Of a stretch of 64,000 nt of DNA, positions 57,990 through 64,000 are shown one piece after another (positions within the stretch are counted from its first letter, which is position 1; each line of letters begins with the position of its first letter). The notes under the pieces were generated by a model. It worked only from the letters and a program-made list of their open reading frames with translations, was not told the origin of the DNA and did not search any database. The stretch comes from Deltaproteobacteria bacterium. Its GTDB lineage: Bacteria; Myxococcota_A; UBA9042. The position numbers and the translations under genes are program-made. The stretch covers positions 32,158 to 96,157 of the forward strand of contig VGRO01000004.1 of assembly GCA_016875335.1 (NCBI GenBank), in the 5' to 3' direction.

Positions 57990-58168
57990 GGCGTTCCTTG
58001 ATGAATCGGGTCGTTGCAGCAGCCCGGCGAACTGCCGACGGCAAGGGCTGAAGGCGGGGCCATGCTGCGTTCAGAGAACCAAGCGCGGCCTGCACGCCGC
58101 GTTCGGCCGCACCGTCCGCGACCGGGCGATTGTACACACCCACCTGGTCGGCGCAAACGTTCTTATTT

Positions 58169-59562
58169 TCAAGGCTTGTTCTGCAGTCTGCCGGCCGCCA
58201 CCTGGGACATCGCGCTCGCGCACAAGGCGAGCAACAGCGGGTCGAGGTAGGCGCGGAATCGATAGTTCTCTCCATGTTCCAAAGTGTTGCCGACTGCAGC
58301 GACCCACAGCGTGGTCCATGCCGCGACGGCGAGCACCGCCAACTCTGGTCGGTGCGGTCCGGCGCGCAGGGCACGTGACAAGCGGGCGGCCAGGATCGCC
58401 AGCGCCACAAGCACACCAAAGGCCAGCACCACTGGCGCCCCGTCGAGTTCGACCAGGGCAAAGCGGGTCCAAGCCACGTGCAGGTCGTCGATCGGCTGTC
58501 GCGCCGGTCGCAAGAAGGGATAGACCCCCACAGGCCGCAGCCACGCAAGCCACGAACCCAAAAGCGCCCGCGCCCAGGCCGCCGGTTCGGCCGCGTAGAT
58601 CGCGATGGCATCCGCAGCCATCTGCCGCGATACATCGATGTAGGCGACGTGGTTGAAGTTGGGCGCGCCCGAGCGCTTGTGCACCGCGCACAGGGCGGGG
58701 TGCGGATCCCGGCACGGCAGCGGCGGCGCCACATAGGCTGTCAACTCACGGAAAGGGCCGATGGCGCCAAACCGCGAAATACGCCCCTGGTCGGCCAGTG
58801 CGCTGCGGACCTGCGGCGAACTGTGGGCGTGCGCGGTGCGCAAAAGACTCATCCCCGCCCATGAGCTGGCGTTGGGGCTGCCAAACTGCGCCAGGTTCTT
58901 GGCGTATGGCAGGACCATCAGGCCGATCGCGACGCTGGCTGCCGCCCAGATGCGGCGGCGATCGGTCGGGTGGCACCAAGCCGCGAGCGCGAACAGGCCC
59001 ACCGCCCACAGCGGATGGAACAGGCTGCGCAGCCAGCCCAAGGCGACGACGACGCCTGCGACGGCCATCCAACGGCGCAGCGACGTCTGCACTGCGGTCG
59101 GCACGAGCCAAATCAGCGCGGTCACCAGCAAGGTCACCGGCAGGTCGTAGAAAAGCCAGTGCGCAAGGAGCCAATAGCCAGGACTGGCCATCAGCAGCGC
59201 CCCGGCCAGCCAGGCCGTGCGCGGTCCAGCGCCCAAGCGCAACGCCAATCTCCAGGTCAGCAGTCCTCCGACCGCGCCCATGGCGTCCAGGCCGAGGTGA
59301 ACGACCCAACCCTGCGGGTCGATGCCGCCGGCCAACAGGGCAGCCACAGTCGCGTTGTACAGCGGCGGCTGGGCGTGCAGGCGCCACAGCGTTCCCAGCG
59401 GGTCGGCGCGGAGCCATGCAACGTCGACGAGTTGCCAGGTGCGGTCGAGCGGTGCAAAAACGCCGACACCGCGGTGATGGACGAAGGCACAGAGGGCGAC
59501 CCACAAGGCGACCAGGCCGAGCGCAGGAAGCCAGGTTGTTCGAACACGTTCGCTGGGCGTCA
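58169..59562 (-). CDS. polytopic integral membrane protein (GT-C/DUF2029-like; putative glycosyltransferase)
   Basis: Start MTPSERVRTTWLPALGLVALWVALCAF at 59562, with GAGGGGG upstream. At least 10 TM helices. It lies in the same minus-strand gene string as the DprE2/DprE1 homologs. Confidence 0.45.
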
Positions 59563-60123
59563 TCACCCCCTCGCGGGACCCGGCAGCATAGCGCGCGCGC
59601 CCGACCGAGCGCATCCGTCGCTGGACCGACTGGTCGATGGTGTCTTTTTTCGAACTCACAAAAAAGGACGGTGACGGTGGGCCTGTGGACTGCGGGGACG
59701 ACGTCGAAAATACCCGTTGATAGAGGGGGTTGCAGGCGATCTGCCTGTGGACTGGGTCGTGAAGAACGGCGTATTCGTCCCCAGGGCGGAGCGGACCTGT
59801 ATGCGTCATCCCCAGGCCTGGGGATGGTCGGCGACGGATGCACAGGCTTTTTCACAGGGCGCCATTCAAGAATGTGAAGATCTACCTTGAACACTTGAAA
59901 CATACACGGTTTATTTCAAGAACGCCATGTGGAAGACACCCGTTGCTCGTGCGGAGCAGCCCACGACTGCCGCGCCGCTGCCTTGGTTCCAGGGCTCCGG
60001 GGACATTGGGAGGTTGACACTGCTGGTTCGGTGGCGTACACTTTCGGCCCCGCTGGCCTTTGCGCCAGCCCGCCACCCTCGCGCAGGGGGGCATCGGGTT
60101 GTCAAAGGGTTGCCATCTTGCTT

Positions 60124-60195
60124 GGGCGAATAGCTCAGCGGTAGAGCGGCGCCTTTACACGGCGTTGGCCGCAGGTTCGATCCCTGCTTCGCCCA
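60124..60195 (+). tRNA. tRNA-Val (anticodon UAC)
   Basis: Cloverleaf folded by hand: acceptor GGGCGAA/TTCGCCC; D-arm GCTC-AGCGGTA-GAGC; anticodon arm GCGCC-TTTACAC-GGCGT; T-arm GCAGG-TTCGATC-CCTGC; discriminator A; no encoded CCA. Confidence 0.85.
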
Positions 60196-60221
60196 CTGCC
60201 GCAACCGTGGTCTTCAAAAAC

Positions 60222-60295
60222 GGAGTGGTAGTTCAGTCGGTTAGAACGCTGGCCTGTCAAGCCAGAGGCCGCGGGTTCAAGTCCCGTCCGCTCCG
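60222..60295 (+). tRNA. tRNA-Asp (anticodon GUC)
   Basis: GGAGTGGTAGTTCAGTCGGTTAGAACGCTGGCCTGTCAAGCCAGAGGCCGCGGGTTCAAGTCCCGTCCGCTCCG closely resembles canonical bacterial tRNA-Asp. Anticodon loop CTGTCAA. Confidence 0.85.
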
Positions 60296-60301
60296 CCCCA
60301 A

Positions 60302-60420
60302 ATTCAGTCGCACAGCCGCCCCAGATTCAGTCGCGCAGCAGTCCTCAGGCTCAGTCACGCAGCGGGCCTTGGATTCAGTCGCGTAGCGGGCCCCAGATTC
60401 AGTCGCGCAGGCGGCAGGGG
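60302..60420. repeat. five tandem degenerate 23-25-bp direct repeats (consensus ATTCAGTCGCGCAGCGGGCCCCAG) immediately 3' of tRNA-Asp
   Basis: Units start at 60302, 60325, 60348, 60373 and 60397, are contiguous with no spacers, and share the core TCAGTC(G/A)CGCAG. Confidence 0.8.
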
Positions 60421-60474
60421 CGCCCGCGGCGGCGCGGCTGTGGTCGTTTTCTGCTGTTTCGTCCGCCCGGGGAG

Positions 60475-61158
60475 GTGGTCGTGTTGCAGTTGCCCGGGAT
60501 GGCGCTGGCTTTCGCATCCCCCCTGCCGCCGGCCTTGACGCGGGTCCTCGACCGCGAAGTCCTCGTATCGCTTGGACAGTTTGGCCGGTGGGGACGCTTC
60601 GTGCGACCGGTGCACCTCAAGATCGCCGCCGATCCTGCCATGCTGCGCGGGGCAGCGTTGTTGCCGACAGCGCTCGATTTGCGCGGCCTGTGCCGCGGCG
60701 ACGACGTCTGGGTGCTCGACCCTGCCGCATGGCCCGACCCACCGACCGACCGCGAGTTGGCGGACCTCTTGCTGCACGAACTGGCCCATGCGATGTGGAA
60801 CCAGAGTACGGCCCCGGCTGCCGGTGTGGCGCCTGTGACGCCGCCCACTTGGTTTCGAGAGGGTTTTGCGGTGGTCGTCGCCGAAGGAGCGCCCCCAGCC
60901 GCAGCCCGGCGCGCGATCGACGGCGCCACCTTGGCGCATGCCGCGTACGCCGACGATGCCGCTATCGTCAACCTGGGGCCGGTGGCCTACACGGCCGCGG
61001 CGGTGGCGTTCGACGCCTGGATCGCACGCTTCGGTCGCCGCGGTCTGGCCGCGTTGCAGCGCGGACTGCGGGCCGGCAAGTCGTTCGGACGCGCGTTCGA
61101 GTCGTCATGCGCCACCACCGACCGGGCGTTCATTGACGACCTGTGCAAGAGGGTGTAG
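60475..61158 (+). CDS. hypothetical protein with HEXXH zinc-metallopeptidase-like motif
   Basis: ...DRELADLLLHELAHAMWNQ... (HELAH). No signal peptide seen; the start is uncertain (GTG upstream possible). Confidence 0.45.
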   Translation: MVVLQLPGMALAFASPLPPALTRVLDREVLVSLGQFGRWGRFVRPVHLKIAADPAMLRGAALLPTALDLRGLCRGDDVWVLDPAAWPDPPTDRELADLLLHELAHAMWNQSTAPAAGVAPVTPPTWFREGFAVVVAEGAPPAAARRAIDGATLAHAAYADDAAIVNLGPVAYTAAAVAFDAWIARFGRRGLAALQRGLRAGKSFGRAFESSCATTDRAFIDDLCKRV

Positions 61159-61407
61159 CCGAATCACGTTCGTCGCGCGATCGAAGCGCCTGCAGGCGGA
61201 TCGCGAGCGCGCCCGGAGCGACCGAGCCAGCAGCACACCTTTGCGGACGGGGAGGACGCAAGCAGCGAGATGCCAAGGATCTTCGGCCGCAGCAGGACGG
61301 GGTTTCGGCTGCACCCTCCAGGATGTTGTCATTGAACTGACGCGCGCCGCCGCGGTTTGCCCAGGATCTCTTTTGCGCTACGGTAGCCGCCTGCGCAGGG
61401 GGCGACC

Positions 61408-64000
61408 ATGGCCAACGACGACGACAAGACCGACCCATCCGCGGCACCGCCAACCATCTCACCAGCCGGTCAACGCCGCCGCGACAAGTACTCATCCACG
61501 CTAATGTTGACTCCGGGCATGGTCGATTTGCCGCCCGAGATGATCGCGCGCATGGCCATCGCCCAAGCCAGCGTGCCGCAAGCGACTGCGCAGGTCGACG
61601 CGGCAGCGCGGGTAGCGCGCGAACGGGAACGCCTGGAACTGGCGAGCAAGCGCAAAGTGCACTGGCGGCGCTGGGGACCCTACGTGTCCGAGCGTCAGTG
61701 GGGGACGGTGCGCGAAGACTACTCGGCCGACGGCAATGCGTGGTCGTATTTGCCTTTCGATCATGCCCATTTGCGTGCGTACCGCTGGGGCGAGGACGGC
61801 ATCGGTGGTCTGTGCGACAACCGCCAGCGGCTGTGCTGGGCCCTGGCGCTGTGGAATGGCAAGGACCCGATCCTCAAGGAACGCCTTTTCGGCCTCGCCG
61901 GACCCGAAGGCAACCACGGCGAGGACCCCAAGGAACTGTACTGGTACACCGATGCCCTGCCCAGCCACTGCTACGGCAAGATGGTGTACAAGTACCCGTG
62001 CGAACGTTTTCCGTACGAGGCGCTGCGGGCCGAGAACCGCCGCCGCGGCAAACTGGACCCCGAGTTCGAGCTGCAGGACACGGGCGTTCTGGACCATGGC
62101 TACTTCGACGTGGTCATCGAGCACGCCAAAGCCGACGTCGACGACGTGTTGCTGCGGGTGACCGCGACCAACCGGTCGAACGAACCGCGCACGCTGCACT
62201 TGCTGCCGACGGTCTGGTTCCGCAACACCTGGTCGTGGGACCACGGTGCGGCCAAGCCGGTCCTGGCCAAAGGGCCCACGGACGCCGCGGTCGGTCGCCT
62301 GGACCTGGACCACCCGACGCTGGGCAAGCGCTGGTACTACGTGCAAGCACCAGGGTCGTGGTTGCTGACCGAAAACGAGAGCAACGGTGAACGCCTCGGC
62401 TGGTGGCCCGCGCTGCAGCCGCGCGCCCACTACAAGGATGCCTTTGCCGACGCGGTGTTGCACGACGACTTGGACGCCTGTCACCCACACAGCGGCACCA
62501 AGGCCGCCTCCTGGCATGTGCTGCACCTGGCGCCAGGGCAGACCCAAGTGGTGCGCTGCCGGCTGTGCGATCAGCCAACCGAGGCGCCTTTTGCCGAGTT
62601 CGAGGCGGTCTTCGCCGAGCGCACGGCCGACCTCGACGCCTACTACGCCGCCGTCGGATCGACTGGCATGACCGAGGACGAGACGCGGGTGTTCCGCCAA
62701 GCGTTGGCCGGGTTGCTGTTCACCAAGCAGTATTACGGTTTCGACCTGCGGCGCTGGTTCGACGGCGATCCCGCCCAGCCCAAGCCGCCAGAACGCCGCA
62801 AGCAGGGCCGCAATGCCCACTGGCTGCACCTGCACCACGACGATGTGCTGTCGATGCCTGACAAATGGGAGTACCCGTGGTACGCGGCATGGGACCTGGC
62901 GTTCCATTGCGTGGCGTTCGCGCTGGTCGACGCCGACTACGCCAAGCGCCAACTGCGCCTGATGCTGCGCGAATGGTACATGCACCCCAATGGCCAGATC
63001 CCGGCCTACGAGTGGAACTTCGGCGACGTCAATCCGCCGGTCCACGCCTGGGCGGCGTGGCGCGTGTACAAGATCGAGCAGCGCGCCACCGGCAAGGGCG
63101 ACACCGACTTTTTGGAGAAGATTTTTCACAAGCTGCTCATCAACTTCACCTGGTGGGTCAACCGCAAGGATGCCGAGGGCAACAACGTCTTCGAAGGCGG
63201 TTTCTTGGGGCTGGACAACATCGGCGTCTTCGACCGTTCGGCGCCGCTGCCCAACGGCGGACGCATCGAGCAGAGCGACGCCACCAGTTGGATGGCGATG
63301 TACTCGTTGAACCTGCTGGCCATTGCCCTGGAACTGGCGCGCACCAACAAGGCCTACGAGGACGTGGCCAGCAAGTTCTTTGAACATTTCATGTACATCG
63401 CCGACGCGATGCGCACGACCCACCTGTGGGACGACCAGGACGGGTTCTTCTACGACGTGTTGGCGCTGCCCGGCCACCAGAAGATGCCGATGCGCGTGCG
63501 CAGCATGGTCGGCCTCATCCCGCTCTTCGCCGTCGAGACGATCAGTGACGGCGTGCTGGAGAAGTTGCCGCGTTTTCGGACGCGCCTGCAGTGGTTCCTC
63601 GACAATCGCCGCGACCTGCACCAGACCGTCAGCCAGATCGCGCAGGTCAACGACAAGGGGCTGCGCCTGCTCAGCGTGCTCGACGAGACGCGCCTGCGGC
63701 GTATCGCCCAGGTCATGCTCGACGAAGCGGAATTCCTCAGCGATTACGGGGTGCGCAGCTTGTCGCGCGCCCACAGCGACCGGCCCTATGTGCTGGTGCT
63801 CGACGGATCGCGCCACGAAGTGCGCTACGACCCGGCCGAGTCGTCCACCGGCATGTTCGGCGGAAACAGCAATTGGCGCGGGCCGATCTGGTTCCCGGTC
63901 AACTTTCTGGTCATCGAGGCGTTGCAGCGCTTCCACTACTACTTTGGCGATCGCGTCCTGGTCGAGATGCCGAGCGGATCGGGCCATCGCGTCAACCTCG
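61408..64000 (+). CDS. MGH1-like glycoside hydrolase (GH63 / six-hairpin glucosidase family), 3'-partial; runs off the window end
   Basis: My own translation from ATG 61408 (AGGGGG RBS 7 nt upstream) stays open for >860 codons to the window end: MANDDDKTD...[55 protein letters not shown]...[67 protein letters not shown]... These are typical GH63/MGH1 motifs. It is not in the ORF track because it has no stop. The listed minus ORF 61501..63987 is its antisense shadow. Confidence 0.65.

What the first reader, a model, noticed from the sequence alone, without database searches (positions are those of the whole stretch)
60302..60420. Five tandem ~24-bp direct repeats immediately downstream of the tRNA-Val/tRNA-Asp pair
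Contiguous units begin at 60302, 60325, 60348, 60373 and 60397 with consensus ATTCAGTCGCGCAGCGGGCCCCAG, each with 2-5 substitutions. They start 7 nt after the tRNA-Asp 3' end and stop 55 nt before an HEXXH-protein gene. They are not CRISPR-like, since they have no spacers, and the unit length of 23-25 bp is iteron-like. tRNA 3' flanks are classic integration sites for mobile elements. Such arrays can be binding sites for a regulator or initiator, remnants of repeated att duplications, or a promoter-tuning minisatellite.
Basis: seen in the sequence. Interest (0 to 1): 0.5.

Follow-up and report, generated by a model that had tools for sequence, protein, structure and literature searches.

The report
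Decaying tandem repeat in tRNA trailer
Five imperfect 24-bp copies sit directly after a tRNA-Asp gene in an uncultured myxobacterium-like genome; close relatives lack them, so they look like an ordinary, slowly decaying DNA stutter rather than a regulatory or mobile-element site.

Summary
A 24-bp unit is repeated 4.9 times at 60295-60410 (TRF score 127, the highest in the window; the best of 40 surrogate sequences scored 71). An independent assembly reproduces it base for base.

The array starts in the last 1-3 nt of tRNA-Asp. It lies between that tRNA and a terminator-like hairpin (60424-60443 plus a T-tract), downstream of a conserved sigma-70-like promoter (60014-60042). It is therefore most likely part of the transcribed 3' trailer of a tRNA-Val/tRNA-Asp operon.

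Only two related lineages share this gene order (about 90% amino-acid identity in conserved neighbours), and both have identical tRNAs. One has a unique 98-nt trailer with no repeat. The other has two unrelated arrays, 17 bp x3.2 in the Val-Asp spacer and 21 bp x2.7 in the trailer.

The W units differ from each other by about 20%, almost all transitions. No core is conserved beyond chance. The array shows no dyad symmetry, no excess RNA structure and no other copy in the 64 kb window. It has no match in phage, plasmid or viral collections, and no integrase or island lies next to it.

Best reading: a lineage-specific, decaying minisatellite made by slipped-strand duplication of the tRNA's immediate 3' flank. 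The closest known analogue is the repeat array after E. coli tyrT/tyrV. The iteron and att-scar readings are not supported. Interest is low.

The parts
60014..60042 (+). Sigma-70-like promoter of the tRNA operon (TTGACA-17-TACACT)
   Evidence: 10 of 12 consensus matches and the only promoter-like site in 59700-60700 (shuffle mean 0.1). It is conserved as TTGACA-17-TACTAT at the aligned position in L001 and L004.
60124..60196 (+). tRNA-Val(TAC)
   Evidence: ARAGORN; Rfam RF00005, 71.9 bits. Identical in the relatives.
60222..60295 (+). tRNA-Asp(GTC); no CCA is encoded (discriminator G60295 is followed by CCCCAAA)
   Evidence: Rfam RF00005, 74.5 bits, 60222-60295; ARAGORN 60221-60298; sequence read.
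60295..60413 (+). Tandem array of five degenerate 23-24-bp units, consensus GCCCCAGATTCAGTCGCGCAGCGG. U1 60295-60317, U2 60318-60341, U3 60342-60365, U4 60366-60389, U5 60390-60413. The 23-bp register of U1/U2 begins at 60293, inside the acceptor stem.
   Evidence: Pairwise unit differences are 0-7 of 21, mean p=0.20. Ten of 11 substitutions are transitions. Identical in the independent assembly L268.
60424..60458 (+). Terminator-like G+C-rich hairpin (60424-60443) followed by the interrupted T-tract TCGTTTTCTGCTGTT
   Evidence: three nested terminator-like hits against 1.1 expected; local fold -28.1 kcal/mol, z=-1.86. No counterpart was found in L001 or L004, so termination is inferred, not shown.
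60475..61158 (+). Downstream gene: 227-aa HEXXH protein (weak Peptidase_MA_2 match), with a GGAGG ribosome-binding site at 60462-60466
   Evidence: Its start is conserved in the alignment with L001 and L004. The NCBI twin is MBM4342104.1, hypothetical protein, Deltaproteobacteria bacterium.

Best explanation
The array is a lineage-specific, mutationally decaying minisatellite in the transcribed 3' trailer of a tRNA-Val/tRNA-Asp operon.

Proposed mechanism (inferred): replication slippage or unequal exchange duplicated the 23-24 bp that directly follow tRNA-Asp, and the first copy includes the tRNA's last 1-3 nt. Further rounds gave five copies. U2 and U5 are still identical over 21 nt. Since then the copies have drifted by point mutation, mostly transitions.

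The array is probably transcribed from the conserved promoter at 60014-60042 as part of the tRNA precursor. It would then be cut off during 3' maturation. Because no CCA is encoded, that means an endonucleolytic cut, trimming, and CCA addition.

It has no sequence-specific role. At most it adds about 118 nt of poorly structured spacer between tRNA-Asp and the terminator-like hairpin and the downstream HEXXH gene.

Shown: the position, the repeat anatomy, its absence from relatives, and the lack of matches elsewhere. Inferred: transcription, processing, the slippage origin and neutrality.
For: Position: the array lies between tRNA-Asp and a terminator-like hairpin, downstream of the only promoter-like site, which is conserved in relatives.

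Not conserved: lineage A (L001-L003) has identical tRNAs and the same flanking genes but a unique 98-nt trailer with no TRF array. Lineage B (L004-L007) has different arrays, 17 bp x3.2 in the Val-Asp spacer and 21 bp x2.7 in the trailer. The W and B units and the three trailers show no similarity beyond shuffles (p=0.3-0.8).

Age: mean inter-unit divergence is p=0.20. Four-fold-site divergence between the lineages is p=0.35-0.47. The array therefore arose after the lineages split and is neither new nor homogenised.

No sign of constraint: 10 of 11 substitutions are transitions, and the longest invariant run (TCAGTC) has p=0.09. The array RNA is no more stable than shuffles (z=+0.89).

No other copies: none in the 64 kb window. 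No Rfam family matches even at E<=10.

Not mobile: flanking genes are collinear with relatives on both sides. Viral contigs, phages and plasmids hold no match.

Known precedent, tested here: E. coli K-12 has a 178-bp x3.1 array that starts 19 nt inside the 3' end of tyrV.
Against: All three arrays with at least 2.5 copies and TRF score of at least 80 in the roughly 83 kb of this clade that I examined fall in the roughly 0.67 kb of spacer and trailer of this one operon. That is more than a uniform neutral process predicts. It could reflect a local mutational hotspot or selection for repeated RNA motifs.

The array has persisted long enough for about 20% divergence without being deleted.

Each unit carries an A/U-rich patch (AGAUUC) in an otherwise 68% G+C genome, which could serve as an RNase E-type site.

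Transcription, processing and neutrality were not measured. Population-level copy-number data for this lineage do not exist in the databases searched.
Confidence: 0.65

Rival explanations
1. The repeats work at the RNA level in the trailer. They would be a multi-site platform in the tRNA precursor or in the 5' UTR of the HEXXH gene. Examples: repeated single-stranded A/U-rich entry or cleavage sites for RNase E that speed release of tRNA-Asp, or a multivalent decoy for an sRNA or RNA-binding protein, like the 3'ETS-leuZ sponge.
For: The array lies inside the inferred transcript and is unstructured (z=+0.89). Four of the five units carry R-N-A-U-U (AAAUU, AGAUU, GGAUU, AGAUU; read). That matches the RNase E preference RN|WUU, which I recall from the literature. 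A related lineage independently gained arrays in the spacer and trailer of the same operon, so arrays are enriched in this operon's transcribed non-coding parts. No terminator-like site separates tRNA-Asp from the HEXXH gene in relatives, so co-transcription is plausible.
Against: Lineage A manages with no repeat at all. The repeat units of W and B share no motif. No unit core is conserved beyond chance. No complementary target lies in the window (searched both strands). The RNWUU pattern is short and was noticed after the fact.
Confidence: 0.13
2. The repeats are DNA binding sites, iteron-like or operator-like, for a regulator or initiator that controls the HEXXH gene or a replication function.
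For: Five direct repeats of iteron-like length lie 60-180 bp upstream of a start codon. A conserved cluster of short motifs and an A+T-richer patch lie 300-600 bp upstream.
Against: No rep or initiator gene is present. The locus is chromosomal and syntenic with relatives, and there is no GC-skew switch. Relatives with an orthologous HEXXH gene, promoter and upstream motif cluster lack the array. The units have no dyad symmetry, and their 24-bp spacing is off helical phase. No promoter-like site lies downstream of the array, but a terminator-like site does. There is no plasmid match, and unit decay shows no protected core.
Confidence: 0.06
3. The repeats are scars of repeated integration and excision of a mobile element at the tRNA-Asp 3' end (serial att duplications).
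For: tRNA 3' ends are classic att sites, and from memory Myxococcus phage Mx8 uses a tRNA-Asp locus; the review I read only states that two neighbouring attB sites exist. The organism is labelled Deltaproteobacteria, and a gene neighbour's 84% homologue is labelled Myxococcales. The first unit overlaps the tRNA end by 1-3 nt.
Against: att duplications copy tens of nt of the tRNA 3' part. These units contain none of the T-arm or acceptor sequence. Similarity of the unit to either tRNA is not significant (best p=0.03 before correcting for 12 tests). No integrase or foreign DNA is present, and both flanks are collinear with relatives. The unit and the tRNA end each gave 0 hits in viral contigs. 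Phage searches returned only generic tRNA hits.
Confidence: 0.03
4. Assembly or read-through artefact.
For: Repeats can be mis-assembled in metagenomes.
Against: A second, independent assembly (L268) is identical. All units are distinguishable and the whole array is shorter than one read. The substitutions are transition-biased.
Confidence: 0.02

Closest known systems
E. coli tyrT/tyrV trailer repeats (source of rtT/RttR RNA and the Tpr ORF)
   Same: A tandem array begins inside the 3' end of the last tRNA gene of a tRNA operon and fills the transcribed trailer. I verified this on NC_000913: 178 bp x3.1, overlapping tyrV by 19 nt, with rttR annotated inside it. The literature describes rttR as encoded by one repeat unit of the tyrT operon (PMC3318445).
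   Different: The E. coli unit is 178 bp at 95% identity and copies 19 nt of the tRNA. It yields a discrete annotated RNA and a small ORF. Here the unit is 24 bp at 77% identity and copies at most 3 nt of the tRNA. No Rfam match was found, rtT included. There is no credible ORF and no evidence of a stable product.
Bacterial intergenic minisatellites / VNTRs (for example mycobacterial MIRU-type loci)
   Same: Unit length of tens of bp, a few imperfect head-to-tail copies, a non-coding position within or between transcription units, lineage-specific presence, and a slippage origin.
   Different: VNTR status needs copy-number polymorphism among strains, which could not be tested for W. MIRUs are a dispersed family, whereas this unit is single-locus in the 64 kb window. 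Lineage B arrays showed no length change among six near-identical contigs.
Plasmid/phage iterons
   Same: Direct repeats of about 20 bp in a short array.
   Different: No rep gene, no origin context, not conserved, no plasmid match, and located inside a tRNA transcription unit.
tRNA 3' external transcribed spacer acting as an sRNA sponge (3'ETS-leuZ, E. coli; from memory)
   Same: A tRNA operon trailer that could act in trans after processing.
   Different: 3'ETS-leuZ is a single conserved sequence with a defined sRNA partner. Here the sequence is repeated, not conserved, and has no known partner.

Membership tests
Tandem repeat / minisatellite | At least 3 head-to-tail copies of a 10-100 bp unit, beyond chance | tested here: met
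   TRF: 4.9 copies, period 24, score 127, against a surrogate maximum of 71.
VNTR (variable-number tandem repeat) | Copy number differs among strains of the same species | not testable with these tools
   Only one population of W is in the databases. The second assembly, L268, is identical.
tRNA-operon trailer repeat of the tyrT type | The array starts within the 3' end of the tRNA gene and lies in the transcribed trailer | tested here: met
   The first copy starts at 60293-60295, and the tRNA ends at 60295. Promoter upstream and terminator-like site downstream. The overlap is only 1-3 nt, against 19 nt in E. coli.
tRNA-operon trailer repeat of the tyrT type | Sequence or structure homology to rtT RNA (Rfam) | tested here: not met
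   No Rfam hit other than the tRNAs in 59000-61500 at E<=10, and none in the whole window at gathering score.
Iterons | Adjacent initiator (rep) gene and origin features; the array conserved with its replicon | tested here: not met
   Neighbours are chromosomal core genes, syntenic in relatives. No skew switch, no plasmid match, and the array is absent in relatives.
att-site duplication at a tRNA gene | The repeat contains a substantial copy of the tRNA 3' segment, with an integrase or island adjacent | tested here: not met
   At most 3 nt are shared with the tRNA end. The unit-versus-tRNA similarity is not significant. Synteny is intact. No viral or phage match.
CRISPR | Repeats separated by unique spacers of similar length | tested here: not met
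   The units are contiguous, with spacings of 23-24 bp equal to the unit length.
Dispersed repeat family (REP/MITE-like) | Multiple copies elsewhere in the genome; inverted-repeat or hairpin structure | tested here: not met
   No other copy in the 64 kb window. No hairpin excess. Only 64 kb of the genome could be examined.
Structured or conserved non-coding RNA | Conservation or covariation in relatives, or folding stability above background | tested here: not met
   The trailers cannot be aligned between lineages. z=+0.89 for the array and -1.37 for the whole trailer.

The most novel reading that the evidence does not exclude
The transcribed spacers and trailers of this tRNA-Val/tRNA-Asp operon repeatedly and independently acquire short tandem arrays in related Myxococcota-like lineages. 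Lineage W has 24 bp x5. Lineage B has 17 bp x3 and 21 bp x3. The cause would be selection for multivalent, unstructured RNA, such as nuclease entry platforms or decoys released by tRNA processing. Alternatively, very high tRNA transcription could make these few hundred bp a tandem-duplication hotspot.
Probability: 0.12. Interest if true: 0.5.

Novelty: new member of a known kind. Interest (0 to 1): 0.17.

Why it matters
It matters little on its own. It adds one more bacterial example of a tandem repeat that begins at the 3' end of a tRNA gene and fills the operon trailer, as at E. coli tyrT/tyrV.

The one point worth a second look is comparative. In the roughly 83 kb available from three related lineages, every well-developed array lies in the non-coding parts of this single tRNA operon, and the arrays are unrelated in sequence. 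If that held up across many genomes, it would suggest either a transcription-linked duplication hotspot at tRNA operons or selection for repeated RNA motifs in tRNA precursors.

For annotation, the practical message is that this array should not be labelled as iterons, an att site or a CRISPR-like locus.

Tried and rejected
1. Genome and metagenome scans with TTCAGTCGCN{13,16}TTCAGTCGC. The pattern was too loose. BLAST of the array against all 257 loci fetched up to then found only L223.

2. L223 (delta proteobacterium MAG). It carries a 3 x 23 bp array of TTCAGTCGCGCAGCCGAGCCCGA. This turned out to be a triplicated 3' end, including the stop codon, of a minus-strand gene between convergent genes, with no tRNA nearby. 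Given that the search forced the 9-mer and the databases are very large, I treat the resemblance as coincidence. No other pattern hit lies next to a relevant tRNA.

3. The units as tRNA fragments. The shared TTCAGTCG with the tRNA-Asp D-arm has p=0.03 for one of 12 tests, which is not significant. The same holds for the B units against tRNA-Val.

4. Homology between the W and B arrays through shared ATTC/CGCAG/GCCC words: rejected (p=0.46).

5. A chromosomal origin next to the array. DnaA-box-like words upstream are not enriched window-wide, and there is no skew switch.

6. A sigma-54 promoter after the array. By eye, GG-N9-GC at about 60444-60457 is one base off the canonical spacing. A 3-mismatch scan was uninformative (727 hits against 752 expected).

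7. Coding potential. The ORFs across the array on both strands run through the tRNAs and are absent in relatives.

8. More lineages. Distant HEXXH homologues and two GH63 homologues (84% and 74% identity) lie in other contexts without tRNAs.

9. Two literature searches failed on syntax. The Bösl and Kersten 1991 paper is not held.

Full report
OBSERVATION

The sequence at 60290-60420 holds a head-to-tail array.
- TRF reports 60295-60410, period 24, 4.9 copies, 77% matches and score 127, the best of all 69 rows in the window. A second row covers 60293-60339 with a 23-bp unit.
- In 40 first-order Markov surrogates of the window the highest score was 71.
- The 13-nt core TTCAGTCGCGCAG occurs at 60303, 60326, 60350, 60374 and 60398 and nowhere else in the window beyond chance.
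- In the register that starts at the tRNA discriminator base, the units are U1 60295-60317 (23 nt), U2 60318-60341, U3 60342-60365, U4 60366-60389 and U5 60390-60413.
- The repeat finder shows that the U1/U2 duplication begins at 60293, so it includes the last two acceptor-stem bases and the discriminator.
- An independent Logan assembly of run SRR7985589 (L268), reached through the protein's NCBI twin, is identical through the array and its flanks. The array is therefore real DNA and not an assembler product.

ANATOMY OF THE LOCUS

- tRNA-Val(TAC) lies at 60124-60196 and tRNA-Asp(GTC) at 60222-60295.
- The only sigma-70-like promoter in 59700-60700 is TTGACA-17-TACACT at 60014-60042.
- The only terminator-like sites are nested hairpins at 60424-60447 followed by TCGTTTTCTGCTGTT (local fold -28.1 kcal/mol, z=-1.86).
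- The array therefore lies between the last tRNA and the putative terminator, in the operon's 3' trailer.
- Neither tRNA gene encodes CCA.
- The next gene, 60475-61158, encodes a 227-aa HEXXH protein with a weak Peptidase_MA_2 match.
- ORFs that cross the array on either strand also run through the tRNAs and are not credible.
- No Rfam family other than tRNA matches, even at E<=10.
- As RNA, the array is no more stable than shuffled sequence (z=+0.89). The whole trailer is not either (z=-1.37).

RELATIVES

The HEXXH protein has only 13 homologues among 5.8 billion proteins. Contigs that encode the two closest ones keep the gene order: PLP-decarboxylase, membrane glycosyltransferase-like gene, tRNA-Val, tRNA-Asp, HEXXH gene, GH63-like glucosidase.
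- Conserved neighbours are about 90% identical in protein. Four-fold sites differ at p=0.35-0.47.
- The promoter, about 300 bp upstream of it, and both tRNAs align well (promoters). The Val-Asp spacer and the trailer do not align.
- Lineage A (L001-L003) has a 69-nt spacer and a unique 98-nt trailer with no array.
- Lineage B (L004-L007) has a 137-nt spacer with a 17-bp x3.2 array, and a 164-nt trailer with a 21-bp x2.7 array.
- Neither B unit resembles the W unit, and the three trailers are no more alike than shuffles (p=0.3-0.8).
- Six B contigs from different samples are at least 99.8% identical and show no length change. The A contigs behave the same way. Nothing can therefore be said about short-term instability.
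- More distant HEXXH homologues and two GH63 homologues (84% and 74% identity) lie in other contexts without tRNAs. Only these three lineages are informative.
- Source names label the organism 'Deltaproteobacteria bacterium' and the 84% GH63 homologue 'Myxococcales bacterium'.

AGE AND CONSTRAINT

- Units differ pairwise at 0-7 of 21 ungapped columns, mean p=0.20. U2 and U5 are identical over these columns, and U3 and U4 are the most diverged.
- This divergence is roughly a third to a half of the between-lineage four-fold divergence. The array therefore arose after W split from A and B. It is not recent, and it is not being homogenised as a whole.
- Ten of the 11 changes from the consensus are transitions.
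- The longest invariant run (TCAGTC, 6 columns) is not longer than expected (p=0.09).
- Nothing indicates a protected binding core.

Iterons or regulator sites:
- The locus has no initiator gene, is chromosomal and syntenic with relatives, and shows no GC-skew switch.
- It has no plasmid match, no dyad symmetry, and no promoter downstream of the array.
- Orthologous loci do without the array.

att scars:
- The units contain none of the tRNA's T-arm or acceptor sequence.
- The 8-nt identity to the tRNA-Asp D-arm (TTCAGTCG) has p=0.03 in one of 12 tests.
- Both flanks are collinear with relatives, with no integrase.
- Viral contigs contain neither the unit nor this tRNA end. Phage records give only generic tRNA hits.

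Minisatellite: this description fits. 'Promoter-tuning' has no support.

THE BROAD SCANS

My gapped two-core pattern was too permissive.
- BLAST of the array against all loci fetched up to then found a single similar array, in L223.
- That array is a triplication of the last codons and stop codon of a minus-strand gene between convergent genes, with no tRNA nearby.
- The search forced the 9-mer and the databases are enormous, so I treat the resemblance as coincidence.
- None of the other hits lies beside a relevant tRNA.

MECHANISM I COMMIT TO (confidence about 0.65)

Slipped-strand mispairing or unequal exchange duplicated the 23-24 bp directly after tRNA-Asp. Later rounds expanded it to five copies, and the copies are now decaying by point mutation. 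The array is probably transcribed with the tRNAs and discarded during 3' maturation. It has no sequence-specific function and at most acts as an unstructured spacer.

The position, anatomy, lineage specificity and absence of matches are shown. Transcription, processing, origin and neutrality are inferred.

WHAT KEEPS A MORE INTERESTING READING ALIVE

Across the window, L001 and L004 (about 83 kb), all three arrays with at least 2.5 copies and score of at least 80 lie within the roughly 0.67 kb of spacer and trailer of this operon.
- Even if only about 10% of the DNA is non-coding, that concentration is unlikely under a uniform process. The estimate is my own arithmetic, made after seeing the data.
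- Three explanations are possible. These transcribed spacers may be among the few intergenic stretches free of regulatory constraint. Heavy tRNA transcription may make them duplication-prone. Or repeated unstructured RNA may be useful there; four of the five W units carry an RNase E-like R-N-A-U-U patch.
- I give the functional or hotspot reading about 0.12.

COMPARISON WITH KNOWN SYSTEMS

The closest analogue is the E. coli tyrT/tyrV trailer.
- On NC_000913, TRF finds a 178-bp x3.1 array at 95% identity that overlaps the 3' end of tyrV by 19 nt and contains the annotated rttR and tpr features.
- Papers describe rttR as one repeat unit of the tyrT operon, with a proposed role in transcript processing and the stringent response (PMC3318445; bioRxiv 10.1101/2024.07.17.603846).
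- The present array shares the position and the start at the tRNA end. It differs in unit length, in the extent of tRNA overlap, in sequence, and in having no evidence of a product.
- It also fits the general class of bacterial intergenic minisatellites, but VNTR status is untested.
- It is not an iteron set, an att duplication, a CRISPR array, a REP/MITE family member or a known RNA family.

VERDICT

This is a genuine but ordinary feature: a new member of a known kind, of low interest (0.17).

Noticed in passing
window 59682-59823 (and the wider conserved block of about 59700-60010): Five of the window's 30 CCMCAGG sites cluster in 142 bp, including the perfect palindrome CCCCAGGCCTGGGG at 59810-59823. 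The blocks GCGATC..CCTGTGGA, TCCCCAGG and CACAGGCTTTTNCACAGG are conserved in both related lineages. They lie in the divergent region between the membrane glycosyltransferase-like gene and the tRNA promoter. This is probably a binding-site cluster for an unknown regulator. Some words resemble DnaA boxes, but there is no skew switch.
   Followed up: partly
L004 4977-5031 and 5196-5251 (same in L005-L007): The related lineage B carries two tandem arrays of its own in the same tRNA operon: 17 bp x3.2 between tRNA-Val and tRNA-Asp, and 21 bp x2.7 after tRNA-Asp. Neither resembles the window's unit. In the roughly 83 kb examined, all well-developed arrays lie in this operon's non-coding parts.
   Followed up: partly
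L223 4443-4510 and 1259-1348: An unrelated 'delta proteobacterium' MAG has a 23-bp x3 array, TTCAGTCGCGCAGCCGAGCCCGA, that looks like the window's unit. It is in fact a triplicated 3' end plus stop codon of a minus-strand gene. The same 8 kb holds another 24-bp x3.8 array.
   Followed up: partly
window 60424-60458, compared with L001 5903-6000 and L004 5170-5333: Only the window's lineage has a terminator-like hairpin and a strong GGAGG ribosome-binding site between tRNA-Asp and the HEXXH gene. The relatives show no terminator-like site there, so their HEXXH gene may be co-transcribed with the tRNAs.
   Followed up: partly
window 57990-58168, compared with L001 2723-3637 and L004 1928-2860: The window lacks a gene of about 304-310 aa with no Pfam match. 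Both relatives carry it between the PLP-decarboxylase gene and the membrane glycosyltransferase-like gene.
   Followed up: no
window 60407-60420 and 60520-60533: A 14-nt stretch at the end of the array (GCAGGCGGCAGGGG) is 93% complementary to codons about 16-20 of the HEXXH gene, 99 nt away. This could be a 5'-UTR/coding-region pairing or chance in G+C-rich DNA.
   Followed up: no
window 60475-61158: The HEXXH protein family is very rare: 13 homologues among 5.8 billion proteins, with only a weak Peptidase_MA_2 match. Outside the three close lineages it sits next to pdxA, not tRNAs.
   Followed up: partly
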